From Escherichia coli (GTDB lineage Bacteria > Pseudomonadota > Gammaproteobacteria > Enterobacterales > Enterobacteriaceae): a stretch of 44,355 bases of DNA. The stretch lies in the NCBI RefSeq assembly GCF_044324785.1, contig NZ_CP172130.1; one strand, given 5' to 3'. A program made the position numbers and the translations under genes. Positions 1 through 44,355 of the stretch are shown here, in pieces; the first letter of the stretch is position 1, and each line of letters opens with the position of its first letter. Under the pieces are notes generated by a model. It saw only the letters and a program-made list of their open reading frames with translations, searched no databases and was not told where the DNA came from.

Positions 1-855
1 ATGAGGCTTCAGGTGAAAACTGTAACAGGGTTAACGAAAGTCAGGCATAGAAATGAGGTTGGCGTTACTCTGGCATCTCTTTCTCTTTCTGCGAAACGGG
101 TTTTATTTCTCGCACTTTGTCAGATTGATACAAAGGAAATGTTGAATGATGATATTTTGGAGGTTGATGCTGATTTTTTTTCTAAGACAACTACTTTGGA
201 TAAATATGCTGCATATGCGGCCTTAAAAGAAGGTGCAAAAGTTCTGGCTTCAACGACATTAGTTTTAAATAGAGATGATTTAAAAACCCTATCTAATGAA
301 TTGGGAATATCAACATCTAAAAACAAGATACCTGACAGATTGGATTTAAATTTAACCGAATTTTGTGCCTATTATGATCATTTGGCTACTGTTCGTATTA
401 AATTTACTAATACTGCAAAAAGATACTTTTCAAAACTTATTGGCTCTGAAAACAGATATACAACACAGGTGTTAAAATCTGTTGTTATCTTGAACAGTGT
501 AAACTCCACAAACTTATATCAGGTTATCAGAAAATACTATAGTTTAAACCCTGCGAGTAAATCCTTCGAAATTTCAGTTGACCAACTGAAAGAGGAAATG
601 GGGCTTTATAATATTGAAAATGGTGAGAAGGTATACAGATATCCAAAGTACTCTTTTTTTATTCGTGATGTTATAAACAAAAGTATAAGAGAAATCATAG
701 AAAAGACAGAGATAAGGGATATAAAATTTTCAGTGGCAGGAAAAAAAGGACGTATGGTGCATATGCTAAGATTTGATTTTTCTCTCAATGAAGATATTTC
801 TCTTTCTGATGATGAAGCTAAATTCTTGGAAGAGTTTGATAAAAAAGTCCTCTAG
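1..855 (+). CDS. pir: Replication initiator pi protein (Rep_3 family, R6K Pir-like)
   Basis: 284-aa ORF with clear similarity, recalled from memory, to R6K pi protein (MRL.V...RHRNE...LYQLIRKHY...RDV.NK.I.EI..KTEI). Iteron array and inverted-repeat operator lie immediately upstream across the circular junction (44046..44316). Confidence 0.85.
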   Translation: MRLQVKTVTGLTKVRHRNEVGVTLASLSLSAKRVLFLALCQIDTKEMLNDDILEVDADFFSKTTTLDKYAAYAALKEGAKVLASTTLVLNRDDLKTLSNELGISTSKNKIPDRLDLNLTEFCAYYDHLATVRIKFTNTAKRYFSKLIGSENRYTTQVLKSVVILNSVNSTNLYQVIRKYYSLNPASKSFEISVDQLKEEMGLYNIENGEKVYRYPKYSFFIRDVINKSIREIIEKTEIRDIKFSVAGKKGRMVHMLRFDFSLNEDISLSDDEAKFLEEFDKKVL

Positions 856-879: not shown

Positions 880-1326
880 ATGGCTAAAATCTATCAATTC
901 CCTCAGGGGGAAGAACGTGCTAAATTCAGGAAAGAAATAGCCAGGGAGCGTAAGAAACGTTTTGCAGTGAAAACAGGGAGCACTTTTGTTAAGTGGCTTG
1001 GCTGGGGATGGTTTTATCTTCGTCTTCTTGTCGCGAGTGTTTTACATTTTATCTTTGTTTTTGTGTTAGCCATTCTTGGTGCGTTTAAATGGGCTGTATT
1101 CTGGCTGGGTGGTATTTTGTGTGTCATCACCTGGTATCATCTCGATCACCAGTTATGGACTCCACAAAATCTGACTATACCGGTGATTACGGCAACCTGG
1201 ATTTTGGGACTGCTGGCTGAGCCTCTGATGGAGCTGCTCAACAAAACTATGCCCTGGCACAAGTTACTTGTTCCCGAACCTGCGGACGAAAGCACCGAGA
1301 ACAGTAGCGAGATAAGCCAGCAATGA
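880..1326 (+). CDS. Small membrane protein immediately downstream of pir (position of bis in R6K/IncX)
   Basis: 148-aa ORF with a basic N-terminus and two or three hydrophobic helices; GAGG-type RBS region; synteny with pir. Assignment as bis is positional only. Confidence 0.5.
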   Translation: MAKIYQFPQGEERAKFRKEIARERKKRFAVKTGSTFVKWLGWGWFYLRLLVASVLHFIFVFVLAILGAFKWAVFWLGGILCVITWYHLDHQLWTPQNLTIPVITATWILGLLAEPLMELLNKTMPWHKLLVPEPADESTENSSEISQQ

Positions 1327-6988: not shown

Positions 6989-7084
6989 TCAATCGATGAA
7001 CTGACGGATCAGTTCCAGAACTGCAATCAGCGCGTTTGCAACGGCGACCACAGCCCTGAGAACGATGATTAACAGGTTAATCAT
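6989..7084 (-). CDS. Candidate type I toxin: 31-aa hydrophobic peptide MINLLIIVLRAVVAVANALIAVLELIRQFID (DinQ/TisB-like)
   Basis: ATG with GGAG 6 nt upstream; the SD lies in a CUCCAG/CUGGAG hairpin; single transmembrane helix; absent from the ORF track because it is under 60 aa. Confidence 0.4.
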   Translation of the reverse strand: MINLLIIVLRAVVAVANALIAVLELIRQFID

Positions 7085-33880: not shown

Positions 33881-36634
33881 TCAAATCAGGTTCGCCTGTT
33901 CCAGATAGGTATCAAGCCACTCTTCCGGCTTCATTCCTTCTTTCCAGATTTCATCGAACAGTTCTAACTGGGGTTTTGATGCACTGAGAACCGGTAAGTA
34001 ATACGCTGCTTTTCCCAGCTCCAGTCTGGCAAAAGCAGCAAAATCATCACTTTCACCTTTCCTCTGTGGGTTCTTAACAACCAGGAACTGGCGGGACAGC
34101 GGATCAATAGCTTTAATTTTGTCAAAATAAAGCTCCCTGACCTGCAAACCATCAACATATTCACTACGTTTGGCTTTCGGGTTTGCCAGATAGATATGAG
34201 TGGCGCATTGCTCACGAACCGCTGCCGCAATGGGTGATTTAATCAGTTCATCCGGTGACTGTGTGGCTACGACAAGCACCATATCGAGTTTGCGTCCGGT
34301 TTTCAGTTTGTTGTAAACAAAGTCCCTGAACGCTTCGTTATTGATCCATTGCCAGAACTCATCCATGTAGATAAGAAGCCTGCGACCATCGGCCAGCATG
34401 GTGACCCGATAGATGAGATAGAATGAAGCAGCACTGGCCAGCACCTTATTATCCAGGAACTCCGTTCCATCAATACCGAAAACATCCAGGTTATCGACAT
34501 CAAACGTGTCTTCCCGATTGTCGAACACCCAGCCAAACTCTTCCCCCTGCGTCCACGGCTTAAGACGGGCTTTAAGTCCATGACGTTTGGTTTCAGTATC
34601 ATCCGGCTCCTGGATAAGAGGCCGTAGTTTACTGATAGGATAAGAGCGATCTGACCGTTGCATAAGACGTTCAACCGCATCTGAAATCAGGCTGTTCTGG
34701 TAATCATCGAGCGGCTCACTGTTGAGAGTACAAAGCAGCCTCACCAGGTCCTTCATAAAAGCGATATTACGTTTTGTTGGCGGCAGTGCGGCGGGATTCC
34801 AGCCTGTCGGCTCTCCCTCCTTCACCCGGTAATAAGATCCCCCCATAGCCCGTATACCGACTTCACCTGCCCGGTCTTTATCGAAAAAAACCGTGGTCAG
34901 TTTTTTCAGTTTTCTGTTTGCAGGGAATGATTCCGGCGTACCGAACTGCTGGGCGGCAAATGCTTTTGTCATCAGTAATACGGTTTTACCCACGTTAGAC
35001 GTACCGAGAATTTCGGTATGCCCCAGCGTCGGGTTCTTACCGAAGAAATTCTGATGTTCAGTCGTCATATGGTAATTCAGATGGTAGATATCATTACCTG
35101 ACCCCCGAAGAGTAATCAGTTTTTCCCCCCAGGTATTTCCTTTTTCTTTTCCTGAAAAGAAATTATGAAAACTTTCCATTTCAGCAAAATTAAGACTACT
35201 GAGGGTACTCAGACGAGGGCGAAGCGTATAATTTCCTGGAAGCTGAGCAAAATAAGCTGCGCCAAGACTCAGTGTTGAATAAGTGACAATCAGCCCCAAA
35301 TCTTCCAGAGTGGAAGTCACGATATTGGTGTCTTTCACCAGACGCTCCGGTGAATCCGCAAAGACAACCAGGGTCTGATGCGATTTCCCGAAAGAAATAT
35401 ATCCGCTGGAAACCATATCCAGTCCGACTTTCAGATCTGCCAGCAAAGATTTGGCAGCATCATCCGTCATTTCCAGCTTATCGATCTGATCATCCAGCGC
35501 CTTAATCGCTGACTGCTTATCCATCGCAGTAAAGGACGATGTCACGACATACTCAACGGGGAGATACATCAGAGCATCCAGAATACCGGCATCCGTCTCC
35601 TGAAAATAATCCTTAATCTCTATGCAACGAAAATACCGGGCATGGTCTGACGCGGTAATTTGTCCGGCATCATTACCAAAGAACAGGTCTTTTCCTCCCA
35701 GATATGTATAAAACGGACTACTGCTAACCCTGACCTTTTGCCATCGACCAGAAAGCAGATACTGGAACAGAGATAACTGATCTGAATAAACAACCCCATG
35801 ATCTTCATAAAGCCCAAGACGTCGGGAATGAAAACGGGACAGATAGGTGTTCAACCTGTCGCAAATTTCATTCATTTCATTAACAGGCTCTTTAAAGATA
35901 TCTTTTTGTTTTTTACCGCGTGAAAAGAAATGCGTTACTTTATCTTCCGTAGTAAAAGGTTTAAAACAAATCGTCAGAAATAATTTATTCTCGAAAAATT
36001 CAGACTGAGGGAATGACTCGTAATAATCATTCATTACTCTGTTCACAAAAGGAATTTTACTGTTAAATACTGGTCTGACGTCCTTTTTACATCTGATACG
36101 ATGAGGATACAGCGTAACAGATTTCCCTTCAAAGCTACGTATAAGCGTATTGAGCTGATCTGTCAGAATTGACAAATCTTCAGAATCAACACACTCAAAG
36201 TAAGCACCGTCTATCTGCCAGGTTGCCAGCAAATCCCGGTTTTTTGTAACGATAATGTTGTCAGTGATATGTGAAGAGTACGGAATTAACTCTTCAACAG
36301 AAGACTGGTCTTTCAGCTTCATAAAGTTATCCACTTTTGAAATATCAACTTCGTCGTACTGGCTCCCCGCATAATGGACTGCGCTGAATCGCTTGTTTGA
36401 TAAAGGATGCCCTTTGACAAGGGTTCTCAGATACAGAAGGTCAAAAAAGCGTTCATCAAACTGTGTTACACGCCTGATGGCATACCAGCCAGGAAGAATG
36501 AGGGCGTACATAGCCTCATGAATCCAGACACCAAGCAGAACACAAATAATGCACATTCCAAGAAAGGGGTAGAGCGGAACGCCCAGCCCCCTTATTAAAG
36601 CAGGGCGCGTAAGACCTTTAAAAAGAGTACTCAT
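33881..36634 (-). CDS. pilX3-4: T4SS VirB3-VirB4 fusion ATPase
   Basis: 917 aa; N-terminal VirB3-like membrane segment fused to VirB4 ATPase (Walker A GTSNVGKT). Confidence 0.85.
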   Translation of the reverse strand: MSTLFKGLTRPALIRGLGVPLYPFLGMCIICVLLGVWIHEAMYALILPGWYAIRRVTQFDERFFDLLYLRTLVKGHPLSNKRFSAVHYAGSQYDEVDISKVDNFMKLKDQSSVEELIPYSSHITDNIIVTKNRDLLATWQIDGAYFECVDSEDLSILTDQLNTLIRSFEGKSVTLYPHRIRCKKDVRPVFNSKIPFVNRVMNDYYESFPQSEFFENKLFLTICFKPFTTEDKVTHFFSRGKKQKDIFKEPVNEMNEICDRLNTYLSRFHSRRLGLYEDHGVVYSDQLSLFQYLLSGRWQKVRVSSSPFYTYLGGKDLFFGNDAGQITASDHARYFRCIEIKDYFQETDAGILDALMYLPVEYVVTSSFTAMDKQSAIKALDDQIDKLEMTDDAAKSLLADLKVGLDMVSSGYISFGKSHQTLVVFADSPERLVKDTNIVTSTLEDLGLIVTYSTLSLGAAYFAQLPGNYTLRPRLSTLSSLNFAEMESFHNFFSGKEKGNTWGEKLITLRGSGNDIYHLNYHMTTEHQNFFGKNPTLGHTEILGTSNVGKTVLLMTKAFAAQQFGTPESFPANRKLKKLTTVFFDKDRAGEVGIRAMGGSYYRVKEGEPTGWNPAALPPTKRNIAFMKDLVRLLCTLNSEPLDDYQNSLISDAVERLMQRSDRSYPISKLRPLIQEPDDTETKRHGLKARLKPWTQGEEFGWVFDNREDTFDVDNLDVFGIDGTEFLDNKVLASAASFYLIYRVTMLADGRRLLIYMDEFWQWINNEAFRDFVYNKLKTGRKLDMVLVVATQSPDELIKSPIAAAVREQCATHIYLANPKAKRSEYVDGLQVRELYFDKIKAIDPLSRQFLVVKNPQRKGESDDFAAFARLELGKAAYYLPVLSASKPQLELFDEIWKEGMKPEEWLDTYLEQANLI

Positions 36635-39792: not shown

Positions 39793-40334
39793 ATCTCCAC
39801 TTTATTTGAAACAGTTCTCCCTTTACATAACATAATGTAATTCTCAAACTGATTCTTAAGATTAAAAATTTCTGTTGTAAGACGCTCCGCATCCTGATAG
39901 AAACCATCTTTATCAAGAACCCTGGTCTGATCATTAACAATGATATAATGGAAATTACGACCGATCTTATCAATTGAATTACGGCAACGATTCATCATCA
40001 GCAGTTCCTGGTCAAAGAAATCCAGTTCATTTTCAAGTGTCGTCTGTATGCGGTAACGACATTCTCGTGATAACGTCCATCCGTGACGATTAGCAGCTCT
40101 TTCAATATCAGCCCTTTGTTTACCTGTTAAGTACATCGTTGTTTTGATAAAATCATTATTATCAAAAAACGTATTTATATCCTTACTGACAGCTTTACTT
40201 TTTAATAAAGCATTTGCTAAAAGTTTCATGCCTTTAGCTACTGTTAAAGCTGGTTCATCCGGATAAAGAGTTTTAAGGCAATCCAGCAAATCATCATGCT
40301 GATTTTCATCAATTCTGAATTGAACTTTTTTCAT
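39789..40334 (-). CDS. taxA: Relaxosome accessory protein
   Basis: 181 aa from the ATG preceded by GGAGAA; the 23-codon extension in the ORF track is the translated inverted repeat. Confidence 0.65.
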   Translation of the reverse strand: MKKVQFRIDENQHDDLLDCLKTLYPDEPALTVAKGMKLLANALLKSKAVSKDINTFFDNNDFIKTTMYLTGKQRADIERAANRHGWTLSRECRYRIQTTLENELDFFDQELLMMNRCRNSIDKIGRNFHYIIVNDQTRVLDKDGFYQDAERLTTEIFNLKNQFENYIMLCKGRTVSNKVEM

Positions 40335-40443
40335 AAAATTCTCCAACAAGAACCGACTGTAGGTCACCGGGCAAATGTTGCGGAATGGCGTCAGAGACGT
40401 CATTTTGCAGTGTTTGCCCTATCCTGCATCGCAGTGAATCTGG
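40331..40443. promoter_or_regulatory. oriT-like / alpha-origin-like element, copy B of the inverted repeat pair
   Basis: About 85% identical (inverted) to 1355..1468, including the GGGCAAAC...GTTTGCCC palindrome and the shared GGAGAATTTTATGAAA translation start. Confidence 0.5.
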
Positions 40444-43294: not shown

Positions 43295-43767
43295 AAGCCC
43301 TCCGCTTGTCTCATTGGCATAATAGCATCTTTAAAAGCACTCTTAAAAGTGCTTATGTTGAGAAAAACATCAGAACAGGTGAGATATGGCTCTTTCCGAC
43401 ATCGCCTTAAAACGCTCTGTAACGCGTTCTGAGCGTTTTTTCCCGTTTCGTTGTAGTCAGCTACGGTTTAACGGTTTTTAACGCCGCTCAACGCTTTTTA
43501 GCGGCCTTGTTGCTGTGATCTGTTGCCATGATCCGGATAGGAGTTCAATCTTGATCAAAATTTCCTCAAGGCAACGACTGTTTTGTAAATACCCTCTAAA
43601 ACGCGCTGTATCGCATTCTGAGCGATTTTTTCGATTTCGCATGTTTTCACCATGGTTGTATCGAACGAAGCGGCAGAAAGCGATTCAGGGCTTCTCAGTG
43701 AAAGATCCAAAAAGGATCAATCAACGGATCGTATGAGCTGAACTCTTCTGGTTTTGAGAAAGGAGAC

Positions 43768-43825
43768 ACCGCTCGCCGCAGCCGAACGACCGAGCGTAGC
43801 GAGTTAGTGAGCGAGGAAGCGGAAT
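43768..43825 (+). other. Segment resembling the ColE1/pMB1 region CCGCTCGCCGCAGCCGAACGACCGAGCGCAGCGAGTCAGTGAGCGAGGAAGCGGAAG (possible single-strand initiation / primosome assembly site)
   Basis: Recognised from memory of pBR322/pUC sequence, with a few mismatches. Confidence 0.4.
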
Positions 43826-43936
43826 AGCACAGGGATTACATTAGGCACTTACGCACAGTGGTTAAAAAATGAGCATATTGTTTTTATGTGTGGTTGTCTT
43901 GGTTCAGAGTGATCTGTCCTCCGGGTTTACGCAAAG

Positions 43937-43945
43937 TTATCCACA
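43937..43945 (+). promoter_or_regulatory. Consensus DnaA box TTATCCACA flanking the iteron origin
   Basis: Perfect 9-mer; a second near-match CATCCACAG lies at 44178..44186 directly after the last iteron. Confidence 0.5.
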
Positions 43946-44045
43946 GGCGCTGTGCATTTAAAAAACTTATCTTTTCTTCTTGATCTTAAAAACTTAAAAA
44001 CTTAGAGCGTCGTAACATTATGATAAATATAATAAAAAAACGCTA

Positions 44046-44177
44046 AACATGAGAGGATTTTTAACGTAAGGTGAGAGGATCTTTAACATAAGGTGAGAAG
44101 ATTTTTAAGTAAGGGTGAGAAGATTTTTCACTAAAGATGAGAGGATTTTTAACGAAAGGTGAGAGGATTTTTAAGTA
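44046..44177 (+). repeat. Six tandem 22-bp iterons of a gamma-type (pi-dependent) replication origin
   Basis: AACATGAGAGGATTTTTAACGT / AAGGTGAGAGGATCTTTAACAT / AAGGTGAGAAGATTTTTAAGTA / AGGGTGAGAAGATTTTTCACTA / AAGATGAGAGGATTTTTAACGA / AAGGTGAGAGGATTTTTAAGTA; AT-rich flanks. Confidence 0.85.
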
Positions 44178-44260
44178 CATCCACAGGCTAAAAAAATATC
44201 ATGTAAAACATGATGTTATGAATTCATTTTGATGTGAATACATAAAGATCTTTATATCTA

Positions 44261-44316
44261 AAGGTGATAAGTTTTTTAACTAAAGGTTGTAATGTGTTGT
44301 TGTCATACAACCTTTA
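44261..44316 (+). promoter_or_regulatory. pir promoter/operator: iteron-like box AAGGTGATAAGTTTTTTAACTA plus 10-bp inverted repeat AAAGGTTGTA-N14-TACAACCTTT
   Basis: Lies just upstream of the pir ATG across the circular junction. Confidence 0.6.
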
Positions 44317-44355
44317 TAGGGTTATCATTTAGCCAAGTGATACGACTTATCTATA

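What the first reader, a model, noticed from the sequence alone, without database searches (positions are those of the whole stretch)
43937..44316. Gamma-type origin with six 22-bp iterons, DnaA boxes and a pir operator at the window end; the window is circularly permuted at pir
Six tandem 22-bp repeats, a flanking perfect DnaA box, an extra iteron-like box and a 10-bp inverted repeat lie just before the pir ATG at position 1 once the sequence is circularised. This supports the window being a complete replicon. Six full iterons rather than the seven I recall for R6K may matter for copy-number control.
Basis: partly seen in the sequence, partly recalled or inferred. Interest (0 to 1): 0.4.

Follow-up and report, generated by a model that had tools for sequence, protein, structure and literature searches.

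The report
Known IncX1 plasmid replication origin
The end of the window holds the ordinary, already published replication origin of an IncX1 (R485/pE001-type) resistance plasmid, and the window is that whole circular plasmid written so that it starts at its replication gene.

Summary
Six 22-bp iterons lie exactly in phase at 44046-44177. They are preceded by a perfect DnaA box (43937-43945) and a 73% A+T unwinding region. They are followed by a DnaA-box-like site, a seventh iteron-like box (44261-44282) and an 11-bp inverted repeat (44281-44291 / 44306-44316). The repeat's right arm fills the spacer of a sigma-70-like promoter just upstream of the ATG at position 1.

The ORF at 1-855 is a Rep_3 initiator, 41% identical to R6K pi. 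The ends join: the window equals all 38,611 bases of circular plasmid pE001 plus one 5.7-kb insert.

The last 556 bases are 100% identical to pE001 and to pECTm80. The pECTm80 replication region was published in 2012 as an R6K-like triple origin.

Six iterons is not a deviation. R485-type IncX1, IncX3, IncX4 and IncX5/X8 plasmids all have six tandem iterons plus one promoter-proximal box plus an inverted repeat. R6K, with seven, is the exception.

Verdict: already known, low interest.

Two side observations:
- The unwinding region, iterons and pir form a swapped cassette relative to pOLA52.
- A ColE1 ssiA-like segment lies about 110 bp upstream of the DnaA box.

The parts
43937..43945 (+). Perfect DnaA box TTATCCACA on the left edge of the origin
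   Evidence: Only perfect copy in the window. GTTATCCACAG is invariant in IncX1 variants, IncX3, IncX4 and IncX5 at the same position. R6K-type has TTGTCCACA here.
43946..44045 (.). A+T-rich segment, the presumed DNA unwinding element, with CTTAAAAA repeats at 43985-44004
   Evidence: 73% A+T against 56% for the window. CTTAAAAA x2.5. TTTTCTTCTTGATCTTAAAAACTTAAAAACTTAG is invariant between IncX1 variants and IncX3 and closely matched in R6K-type and IncX4.
44013..44025 (-). Candidate IHF site TATCATAATGTTA, one mismatch to WATCAANNNNTTR
   Evidence: Consensus scan. A one-mismatch site lies on the same strand at the equivalent place in the R6K-type origin (L003 3099). Weak evidence.
44046..44177 (+). 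Six tandem 22-bp iterons, consensus AAGGTGAGAGGATTTTTAAGTA, exactly in phase
   Evidence: The TGAGAG core is shared with R6K iterons. The array length is unchanged in 50 of 50 full-length hits sampled across 1109 plasmids.
44177..44185 (+). DnaA-box-like site ACATCCACA (7 of 9) abutting the last iteron
   Evidence: The 10-mer ATCCACAGGC is shared with the left box. TCCACAG is invariant in IncX1 and IncX3. TATCCACA in IncX4. ATCAACAGG in R6K-type.
44242..44255 (.). GATC-centred palindrome ATAAAGATCTTTAT between the array and the promoter region
   Evidence: Read from the sequence. AGATCTT is conserved in IncX3 and similar AGATCT palindromes occur in R6K-type. Function not tested.
44261..44282 (+). 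Seventh, promoter-proximal iteron-like box AAGGTGATAAGTTTTTTAACTA
   Evidence: 24.2 bits against a null maximum of 17.4. Conserved in IncX1 variants and IncX3. Counterpart of the R6K eighth iteron.
44281..44316 (.). Inverted repeat TAAAGGTTGTA (14-nt gap) TACAACCTTTA, the presumed pir operator; the left arm starts in 22-bp register with the seventh box
   Evidence: Arms invariant and loop variable across IncX1 variants and IncX3. Same position as the half-iteron inverted repeats of R6K-type, IncX4 and IncX5.
44300..44328 (+). Sigma-70-like promoter: TTGTCA (44300-44305), 17-nt spacer, TATCAT (44323-44328)
   Evidence: L001 coordinate + 40799. TTG of the -35 and TAT(C/G)AT of the -10 are conserved. 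A consensus match only.
1..855 (+). pir (repX), the Rep_3 iteron-binding initiator, 284 aa
   Evidence: Rep3_N and Rep3_C. 41% identical to R6K pi. PDB 2NRA E 6.6e-57. Annotated as replication initiation protein WP_001239324.1 in pE001.
880..1326 (+). bis homologue, 148 aa
   Evidence: 38% identical to the ORF that follows pir in the R6K-type plasmid, E 3e-42.

Best explanation
This is the vegetative origin and initiator module of an R485/pE001-type IncX1 plasmid, a homologue of the R6K gamma origin. The mechanism below is inferred from R6K and was not tested here.

1. Monomers of the plasmid's own Pir protein bind the six in-phase 22-bp iterons. The winged-helix 2 domain reads the conserved GAG of TGAGAG, and winged-helix 1 reads the lineage-specific half, GATTTTTAAG.
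2. Host DnaA binds the flanking box or boxes, and a bending protein such as IHF assists. Together they open the adjacent A+T-rich segment so that DnaB can be loaded.
3. Pir dimers bind the inverted repeat that overlaps the pir promoter and, together with the promoter-proximal iteron, repress pir.
4. Iteron-bound Pir on sister copies pairs ('handcuffing') to limit copy number.

The window is the complete circular plasmid, linearised at the pir ATG.
For: Shown here:
- The anatomy and its statistics.
- Element-by-element correspondence with the R6K-type origin.
- Pir is a Rep_3 protein homologous to pi and to the solved pi-iteron complex 2NRA, and bis is conserved.
- Conservation across IncX1 variants and IncX3 keeps the DnaA box, unwinding-region motif, iteron cores, inverted-repeat arms and -10 while intervening bases drift.
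- The same six + one + inverted-repeat layout occurs in IncX3, IncX4 and IncX5/X8.
- Circular colinearity with pE001 and pAMSC5.
- 100% identity of the last 556 bp to pE001 and pECTm80.

From the literature:
- The pECTm80 replication region is described as an R6K-like alpha/beta/gamma origin system, 96% identical to the R485 origin (PMC3332091).
- pi winged-helix 2 contacts GAG (PMC4980987).
- Losing an iteron was associated with higher copy number in a pOLA52-type IncX1 plasmid (PMC6118388).
Against: - No binding, replication or copy-number experiment exists for this sequence in what I could read. The mechanism is transferred from R6K, whose initiator is only 41% identical.
- The inverted-repeat arms share only TAAAGGT with the iterons. 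In R6K, IncX4 and IncX5 the arms are clean half-iterons.
- No exact IHF consensus is present.
- The right-hand DnaA site is imperfect.
- There is no obvious Shine-Dalgarno sequence before the ATG at position 1.
- From my own knowledge of R6K, the gamma origin is largely silent in the intact plasmid and serves in cis for the alpha and beta origins. Where synthesis starts in this plasmid is unknown.
Confidence: 0.92

Rival explanations
1. The iteron block is needed in cis as a Pir-loading and enhancer site and for copy control, but DNA synthesis in the intact plasmid starts elsewhere, at alpha- and beta-type origins inside the ~100-bp long inverted repeats that flank the replication region, as in native R6K.
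For: A ~100-bp long inverted repeat lies at 40329-40430 and 1367-1468, bracketing the region. The pECTm80 paper places alpha and beta origins and oriT sites in such repeats of the same backbone. bis, needed for the R6K beta origin by my knowledge, is conserved.
Against: No extra full or half iteron was found anywhere else in the window, although R6K alpha and beta rely on such sites. From memory, a small R485 origin fragment replicates by itself with the initiator in trans (Stalker and Helinski 1985; I could not read the paper).
Confidence: 0.3
2. The 22-bp array is a partition (centromere-like) or purely incompatibility-determining repeat set, not an origin.
For: Tandem repeats next to plasmid maintenance genes can be centromeres. 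The stbDE toxin-antitoxin genes lie just upstream.
Against: The array abuts a Rep_3 initiator gene, carries the pi-type TGAGAG core and is flanked by a DnaA box and an A+T-rich segment homologous to R6K gamma. The ParA/MipZ-type partition ATPase is about 3 kb away on the other side.
Confidence: 0.02
3. The window is not a complete replicon. The apparent join at pir is an assembly or trimming artefact.
For: No reads are available, and no record of exactly 44,355 bp was found in the plasmid collection.
Against: Two independent plasmids are colinear across the join, and pAMSC5 has 0 mismatches over 3 kb each side. All 38,611 bases of circular pE001 map once in circular order, with a single 5,735-bp insertion at 10270-16004. 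Many records start at the same base.
Confidence: 0.02

Closest known systems
R485 / pE001 / pECTm80-type IncX1 replicon (origin of R485, GenBank M11688; pECTm80 FJ914220; pE001 JF776874)
   Same: The 556 bp before pir are 100% identical to pE001 and pECTm80. Pir is the same protein, WP_001239324.1. pECTm80 is reported as 96% identical to the R485 origin region, and its repB/repX as 100% identical to that of R485.
   Different: Nothing in the origin itself. The window differs from pE001 only by a 5.7-kb insertion elsewhere and a few substitutions or indels.
R6K (IncX2) gamma origin with pi, the eighth iteron and the pir operator
   Same: Same order of parts: DnaA box, A+T-rich segment with CTTAAAAC repeats, 22-bp iterons with TGAGAG, a post-array ATCnACAGG site, a promoter-proximal iteron, an inverted repeat, then pir and bis.
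   Different: Seven tandem iterons instead of six. The winged-helix-1 half of the iteron differs (CTTAGTACGT against GATTTTTAAG). Pi is only 41% identical. The R6K inverted-repeat arms are exact half-iterons. The R6K left box is TTGTCCACA. The R6K-type locus lacks the ColE1 ssiA-like segment.
IncX3, IncX4 and IncX5/X8 origins
   Same: Six tandem 22-bp iterons, one promoter-proximal iteron and an inverted repeat; GTTATCCACAG box; unwinding-region motif of the CTTAAAAA type, identical in IncX3 and IncX4 and diverged in IncX5 (CTTAAAAATCTTAAAGAATTAGAG). The IncX8 paper counts the same layout as eight iterons (PMC9239885).
   Different: IncX3 is 79% identical over the origin. IncX4 and IncX5 have other iteron sequences (TAAACATGAGAGCTTCCTCGGT; AAACATGATGGAAAATGCGACG).
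pOLA52-type IncX1 replicon (the usual IncX1 typing reference)
   Same: Same backbone: 99.9% identical up to window 43954, including the DnaA box, and 94.9% identical from 865 onward.
   Different: A different cassette in between: 2 + 3 iterons TGAAAGGTGGATGGGTACGCAC, a second DnaA box, and a Rep only 37% identical.

Membership tests
IncX (R6K-type) gamma origin / pi-iteron replicon | Tandem, in-phase 22-bp iterons carrying the TGAGnG core | tested here: met
   Six copies at 44046-44177, 30.6-34.6 bits each against a null maximum of 17.4. TGAGAG/TGAGAA in all six.
IncX (R6K-type) gamma origin / pi-iteron replicon | Adjacent A+T-rich unwinding segment homologous to that of R6K | tested here: met
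   43946-44045 is 73% A+T. CTTAAAAACTTAAAAACTTAGAG aligns with R6K CTTATAAAACTTAAAACCTTAGAG.
IncX (R6K-type) gamma origin / pi-iteron replicon | DnaA sites bounding the origin (PMC5043065) | tested here: met
   Perfect box at 43937-43945 and a 7-of-9 site at 44177-44185 sharing ATCCACAGGC. Conserved across subgroups. DnaA binding itself was not tested.
IncX (R6K-type) gamma origin / pi-iteron replicon | IHF sites flanking the iterons | tested here: inconclusive
   No exact WATCAANNNNTTR match. One one-mismatch site at 44013-44025 (-) is placed like a one-mismatch site in R6K-type. R6K-type has an exact match after its array; the window has none there.
IncX (R6K-type) gamma origin / pi-iteron replicon | Cognate Rep_3 (WH1-WH2) initiator gene next to the iterons, homologous to pi | tested here: met
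   Rep3_N and Rep3_C. 41% identity, E 1e-63. 2NRA E 6.6e-57.
IncX (R6K-type) gamma origin / pi-iteron replicon | Promoter-proximal iteron plus inverted partial iterons overlapping the pir promoter (autoregulatory operator) | tested here: met
   Box 44261-44282, inverted repeat 44281-44316, and the right arm inside the -35/-10 spacer. The arms share only TAAAGGT with the iterons. Repression was not tested.
IncX (R6K-type) gamma origin / pi-iteron replicon | Pir-dependent replication and iteron-mediated copy control | not testable with these tools
   Needs replication, footprinting and copy-number assays.
R6K itself (IncX2) | Seven tandem iterons of sequence AAACATGAGAGCTTAGTACGTG and the pi protein | tested here: not met
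   Six iterons of a different sequence and Pir only 41% identical. This is a relative of R6K, not R6K.
R485/pE001-type IncX1 replicon | Near-identity of the origin and pir to pE001, pECTm80 and R485 | tested here: met
   100% over 556 bp to pE001 and pECTm80. 0 mismatches over the 3 kb downstream, including pir. Identity to R485 is taken from PMC3332091; the R485 record was not in the collection.
pOLA52-type IncX1 replicon | RepB WP_001050931.1 with TGAAAGGTGGATGGGTACGCAC iterons | tested here: not met
   Rep 37% identical. No similarity between 43955 and 864.

The most novel reading that the evidence does not exclude
On a nearly identical IncX1 backbone, the block made of the unwinding region, iterons, operator and pir (window 43955 through the junction to 864, about 1.27 kb) is an exchangeable specificity cassette. 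Its left breakpoint falls immediately after the shared DnaA box and its right breakpoint just after the pir stop codon. pOLA52-type plasmids carry an unrelated cassette in the same slot. The host-factor sites stay with the backbone: the DnaA box and a ColE1 ssiA-like primosome site (43753-43828, found in IncX1 and IncX4 only). If this is functional, swapping the cassette would change incompatibility and copy control without touching host interfaces. The ssiA-like site would prime lagging-strand or post-transfer complementary-strand synthesis. The sequence pattern is shown here. The functional reading, and whether it is new to the literature, are not.
Probability: 0.25. Interest if true: 0.3.

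Novelty: already known. Interest (0 to 1): 0.07.

Why it matters
It matters little beyond annotation. It confirms that the window is a complete, closed IncX1 resistance plasmid of the pE001 lineage. It also fixes the coordinates of its origin parts.

One practical point: the label 'IncX1' covers two different iteron/initiator cassettes. Published iteron counts therefore refer to different replicons, and should not be compared with this one or with the seven of R6K:
- 'five', and a 3-to-2 deletion associated with higher copy number, for the pOLA52 type;
- six for the R485/pE001 type.

Tried and rejected
- R6K (LT827129), R485 (HE577112) and pOLA52 (EU370913) GenBank accessions were not in the collections. 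I used an R6K-type IncX2 plasmid that matches the R6K gamma core 100% and the RefSeq pOLA52 record.
- Primary R6K papers (PMC397286, PMC2001305, PMC219486) are not held. One literature search was wasted on the ambiguous term 'R485'.
- A search for extra iterons or half-iterons that could mark alpha or beta origins found none above chance.
- The IHF consensus scan gave no exact site.
- The perfect 14-nt inverted match between 43958-43971 and the seventh box looked like a possible looping site. It is not maintained in pFORC7 or IncX3, so I treat it as a by-product of A/T-rich composition.
- Folding the ssiA-like segment as single-stranded DNA gave no unusual stability on either strand (z +0.8 and +0.9).
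- No literature was found linking ssiA to IncX plasmids.
- The second promoter-like hit (TAGCCA/TATAAT, ending on the ATG) was rejected because it cannot transcribe the start codon.

Full report
**What is in the sequence**

The last 420 bases of the window hold a compact set of origin elements.

- Tandem Repeats Finder reports one strong array in the whole window: period 22, 5.7 copies, 44050-44174, score 171.
- Read in register, there are six 22-mers with no indel, starting at 44046, 44068, 44090, 44112, 44134 and 44156. The consensus is AAGGTGAGAGGATTTTTAAGTA.
- A weight matrix built from them scores each copy at 30.6-34.6 bits. The best score in 30 locally shuffled windows was 17.4.
- The only other site above that null in all 44 kb, on either strand, is a seventh box at 44261-44282 (AAGGTGATAAGTTTTTTAACTA, 24.2 bits).
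- A 13-mer half-iteron search also finds only the six.

The flanking elements are as follows.

- Upstream lies TTATCCACA at 43937-43945, the only perfect DnaA box in the window. By count alone this is not significant.
- A 100-bp segment of 73% A+T follows, with CTTAAAAA repeats.
- Directly after the sixth iteron comes ACATCCACA (44177-44185). It shares the 10-mer ATCCACAGGC with the left box.
- Exactly 22 bp after the start of the seventh box, the inverted repeat begins: TAAAGGTTGTA, a 14-nt gap, then TACAACCTTTA (44281-44316). The arms are 11 bp, not 10. A repeat this long arose in 2 of 300 Markov resamples.
- A sigma-70-like promoter has TTGTCA at 44300-44305 and TATCAT at 44323-44328. The right arm fills the 17-nt spacer (read on a locus that spans the junction).

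**The ends join**

- In pE001 and pAMSC5, which are not linearised at this point, the 556 bp before the window end are followed directly by the 855-bp replication gene. pAMSC5 shows 0 mismatches over 3 kb on both sides of the join.
- A whole-plasmid comparison shows that all 38,611 bases of circular pE001 are present once, in circular order. The only addition is a single 5,735-bp insertion at 10270-16004.
- Several database records start at the same base.
- The window is therefore a complete IncX1 plasmid written from the pir ATG.

**What it is**

- The ORF at 1-855 has the Rep3_N and Rep3_C winged-helix domains.
- It is 41% identical to R6K pi over its whole length, including the MRL(Q/K)V N-terminus.
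- It matches the solved pi-iteron complex 2NRA at E 6.6e-57.
- The next ORF is a bis homologue.
- I recovered an R6K-type origin from an IncX2 plasmid that matches the R6K gamma core 100%.
- The two regions align part by part: DnaA box, A+T-rich segment with CTTA(T)AAAACTTAAAA(A/C)CTTAGAG, iterons with the TGAGAG core, ATC(C/A)ACAGG, promoter-proximal iteron, inverted repeat, pir.
- An alignment of three IncX1 variants and IncX3 keeps exactly these parts while the spacers and the repeat's loop drift. The conserved parts are GTTATCCACAG, a 34-nt unwinding-region motif, the iteron cores, TCCACAG, the seventh box, both arms, TTG of the -35 and the -10.

**Mechanism**

The mechanism is inferred from R6K and the reviews, and was not tested here.

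- The winged-helix 2 domain of pi contacts GAG and winged-helix 1 contacts the other half of the iteron (PMC4980987).
- Here the GAG half is conserved and the other half differs from R6K, which fits a diverged specificity.
- I infer that Pir monomers on the six iterons, with DnaA and a bending protein, open 43946-44045.
- I also infer that Pir dimers on the inverted repeat repress pir, and that iteron-bound Pir pairs plasmids to limit copy number.
- The weak points are listed in the evidence against the best explanation: the arms share only TAAAGGT with the iterons, there is no exact IHF consensus, and there is no clear ribosome-binding site before the ATG.
- In native R6K, by my own knowledge, the gamma origin is mostly silent and serves the alpha and beta origins. 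A ~100-bp long inverted repeat (40329-40430 / 1367-1468) brackets the replication region here as well.
- The pECTm80 paper places alpha and beta origins in such repeats. The actual start site in this plasmid is therefore open.

**Six versus seven iterons**

| Lineage | Tandem iterons | Source |
|---|---|---|
| Three IncX1 variants of this type (100%, 97.8% and 88.6% identical) | 6 | |
| IncX3 | 6 | |
| IncX5/X8 | 6 | |
| IncX4 | 6.0 copies | |
| R6K-type IncX2 | 7 | |

- In an evenly spaced sample of 60 out of 1109 plasmid hits to the array with its flanks, all 50 full-length hits span 281 bp (one spans 282 bp). None has a 22-bp indel.
- The IncX8 paper counts the same layout as eight iterons: six, plus one, plus the left arm.
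- Six is therefore the common IncX state and R6K is the exception.
- Iteron number can matter. A 22-bp deletion (3 to 2 repeats) was associated with higher copy number in a Salmonella Heidelberg 'IncX1' plasmid (PMC6118388). That plasmid carries a different replicon, described below.

**Already known**

- The 556 bp are 100% identical to pE001 and pECTm80.
- The pECTm80 replication region was published in 2012 as an R6K-like triple-origin system, 96% identical to the R485 origin.
- The finding is correct, ordinary and already described.

**Side observations**

1. Compared with pOLA52, the usual IncX1 reference, the window is 99.9% identical up to 43954, just past the DnaA box. It is unrelated through the unwinding region, iterons and pir, and similar again from 865.
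   - pOLA52 and the S. Heidelberg plasmids carry 2 + 3 iterons of another sequence and a Rep only 37% identical.
2. A segment at 43753-43828 is 90-98% identical to thousands of small ColE1-type plasmids.
   - In one of them it lies about 570-650 nt downstream of RNAI, between the origin and rop. That is where ColE1 ssiA, the primosome assembly site, is expected (concept from PMC3167613).
   - It is present in IncX1 and IncX4 loci and absent from the IncX2, IncX3 and IncX5 loci examined.
3. Shigella pINV-type plasmids carry a dead remnant of this origin with two iterons and no pir.

Noticed in passing
window 43955-44355 plus 1-864, compared with L013 (pOLA52) 34318-35751: The unwinding region, iterons, operator and pir form a swapped cassette. 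The backbone is 99.9% identical to pOLA52 up to 43954 (just after the DnaA box) and 94.9% identical from 865. In between, pOLA52 has unrelated 2 + 3 iterons (TGAAAGGTGGATGGGTACGCAC), a second DnaA box and a Rep only 37% identical. 'IncX1' therefore covers two different replicons.
   Followed up: partly
window 43753-43828 (+), core 43790-43824: This segment is 90-98% identical to the region downstream of the origin in thousands of small ColE1-type plasmids, where the ssiA / n'-pas primosome site is expected. It ends in GAGCGAGGAAGCGGAA. It is found in IncX1 and IncX4 loci but not in the IncX2, IncX3 or IncX5 loci examined. Single-strand folding is unremarkable.
   Followed up: partly
L008 (Shigella flexneri 220-kb plasmid NZ_CP026771.1) 1200-1400: Large Shigella and E. 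coli virulence-type plasmids carry a remnant of this origin near ipgB2: the DnaA box, a degraded A+T-rich segment and only two iterons, with no pir following.
   Followed up: partly
window 40329-40430 and 1367-1468: A ~100-bp long inverted repeat brackets the replication region, and arm 2 contains a local hairpin (1378-1396 / 1410-1428). This matches the alpha/beta long inverted repeats with oriT sites described for R6K and pECTm80.
   Followed up: partly
window 10270-16004: A 5,735-bp insertion relative to pE001, inside the Tn3-like region. It contains an Rfam AAC_AAD_leader / attI match at 14219-14294 (-), so it probably carries integron-borne aminoglycoside resistance.
   Followed up: no
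window 18107-18194 (+): An Rfam AgrB antisense RNA match (68.8 bits). It sits in the stretch colinear with pE001 (offset about -30), whose annotated DinQ-like type I toxin gene dqlB (pE001 12762-12857) maps elsewhere, at about window 6989-7084. It may still be part of a plasmid type I toxin-antitoxin pair, but no adjacent toxin gene was identified here.
   Followed up: no
window 43958-43971 versus 44266-44279: A perfect 14-nt inverted match (TTAAAAAACTTATC / GATAAGTTTTTTAA) links the A+T-rich segment and the seventh iteron-like box. It is not maintained in pFORC7 or IncX3, so it is probably compositional.
   Followed up: yes
L006 (IncX3 plasmid CP024820.1) 1505-2518: The annotated IncX3 replication gene starts about 150 bp upstream of the conserved ATGAGGCTT start and runs through the seventh iteron and the inverted repeat. 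This is probably an over-extended start-codon call in many IncX3 records.
   Followed up: no
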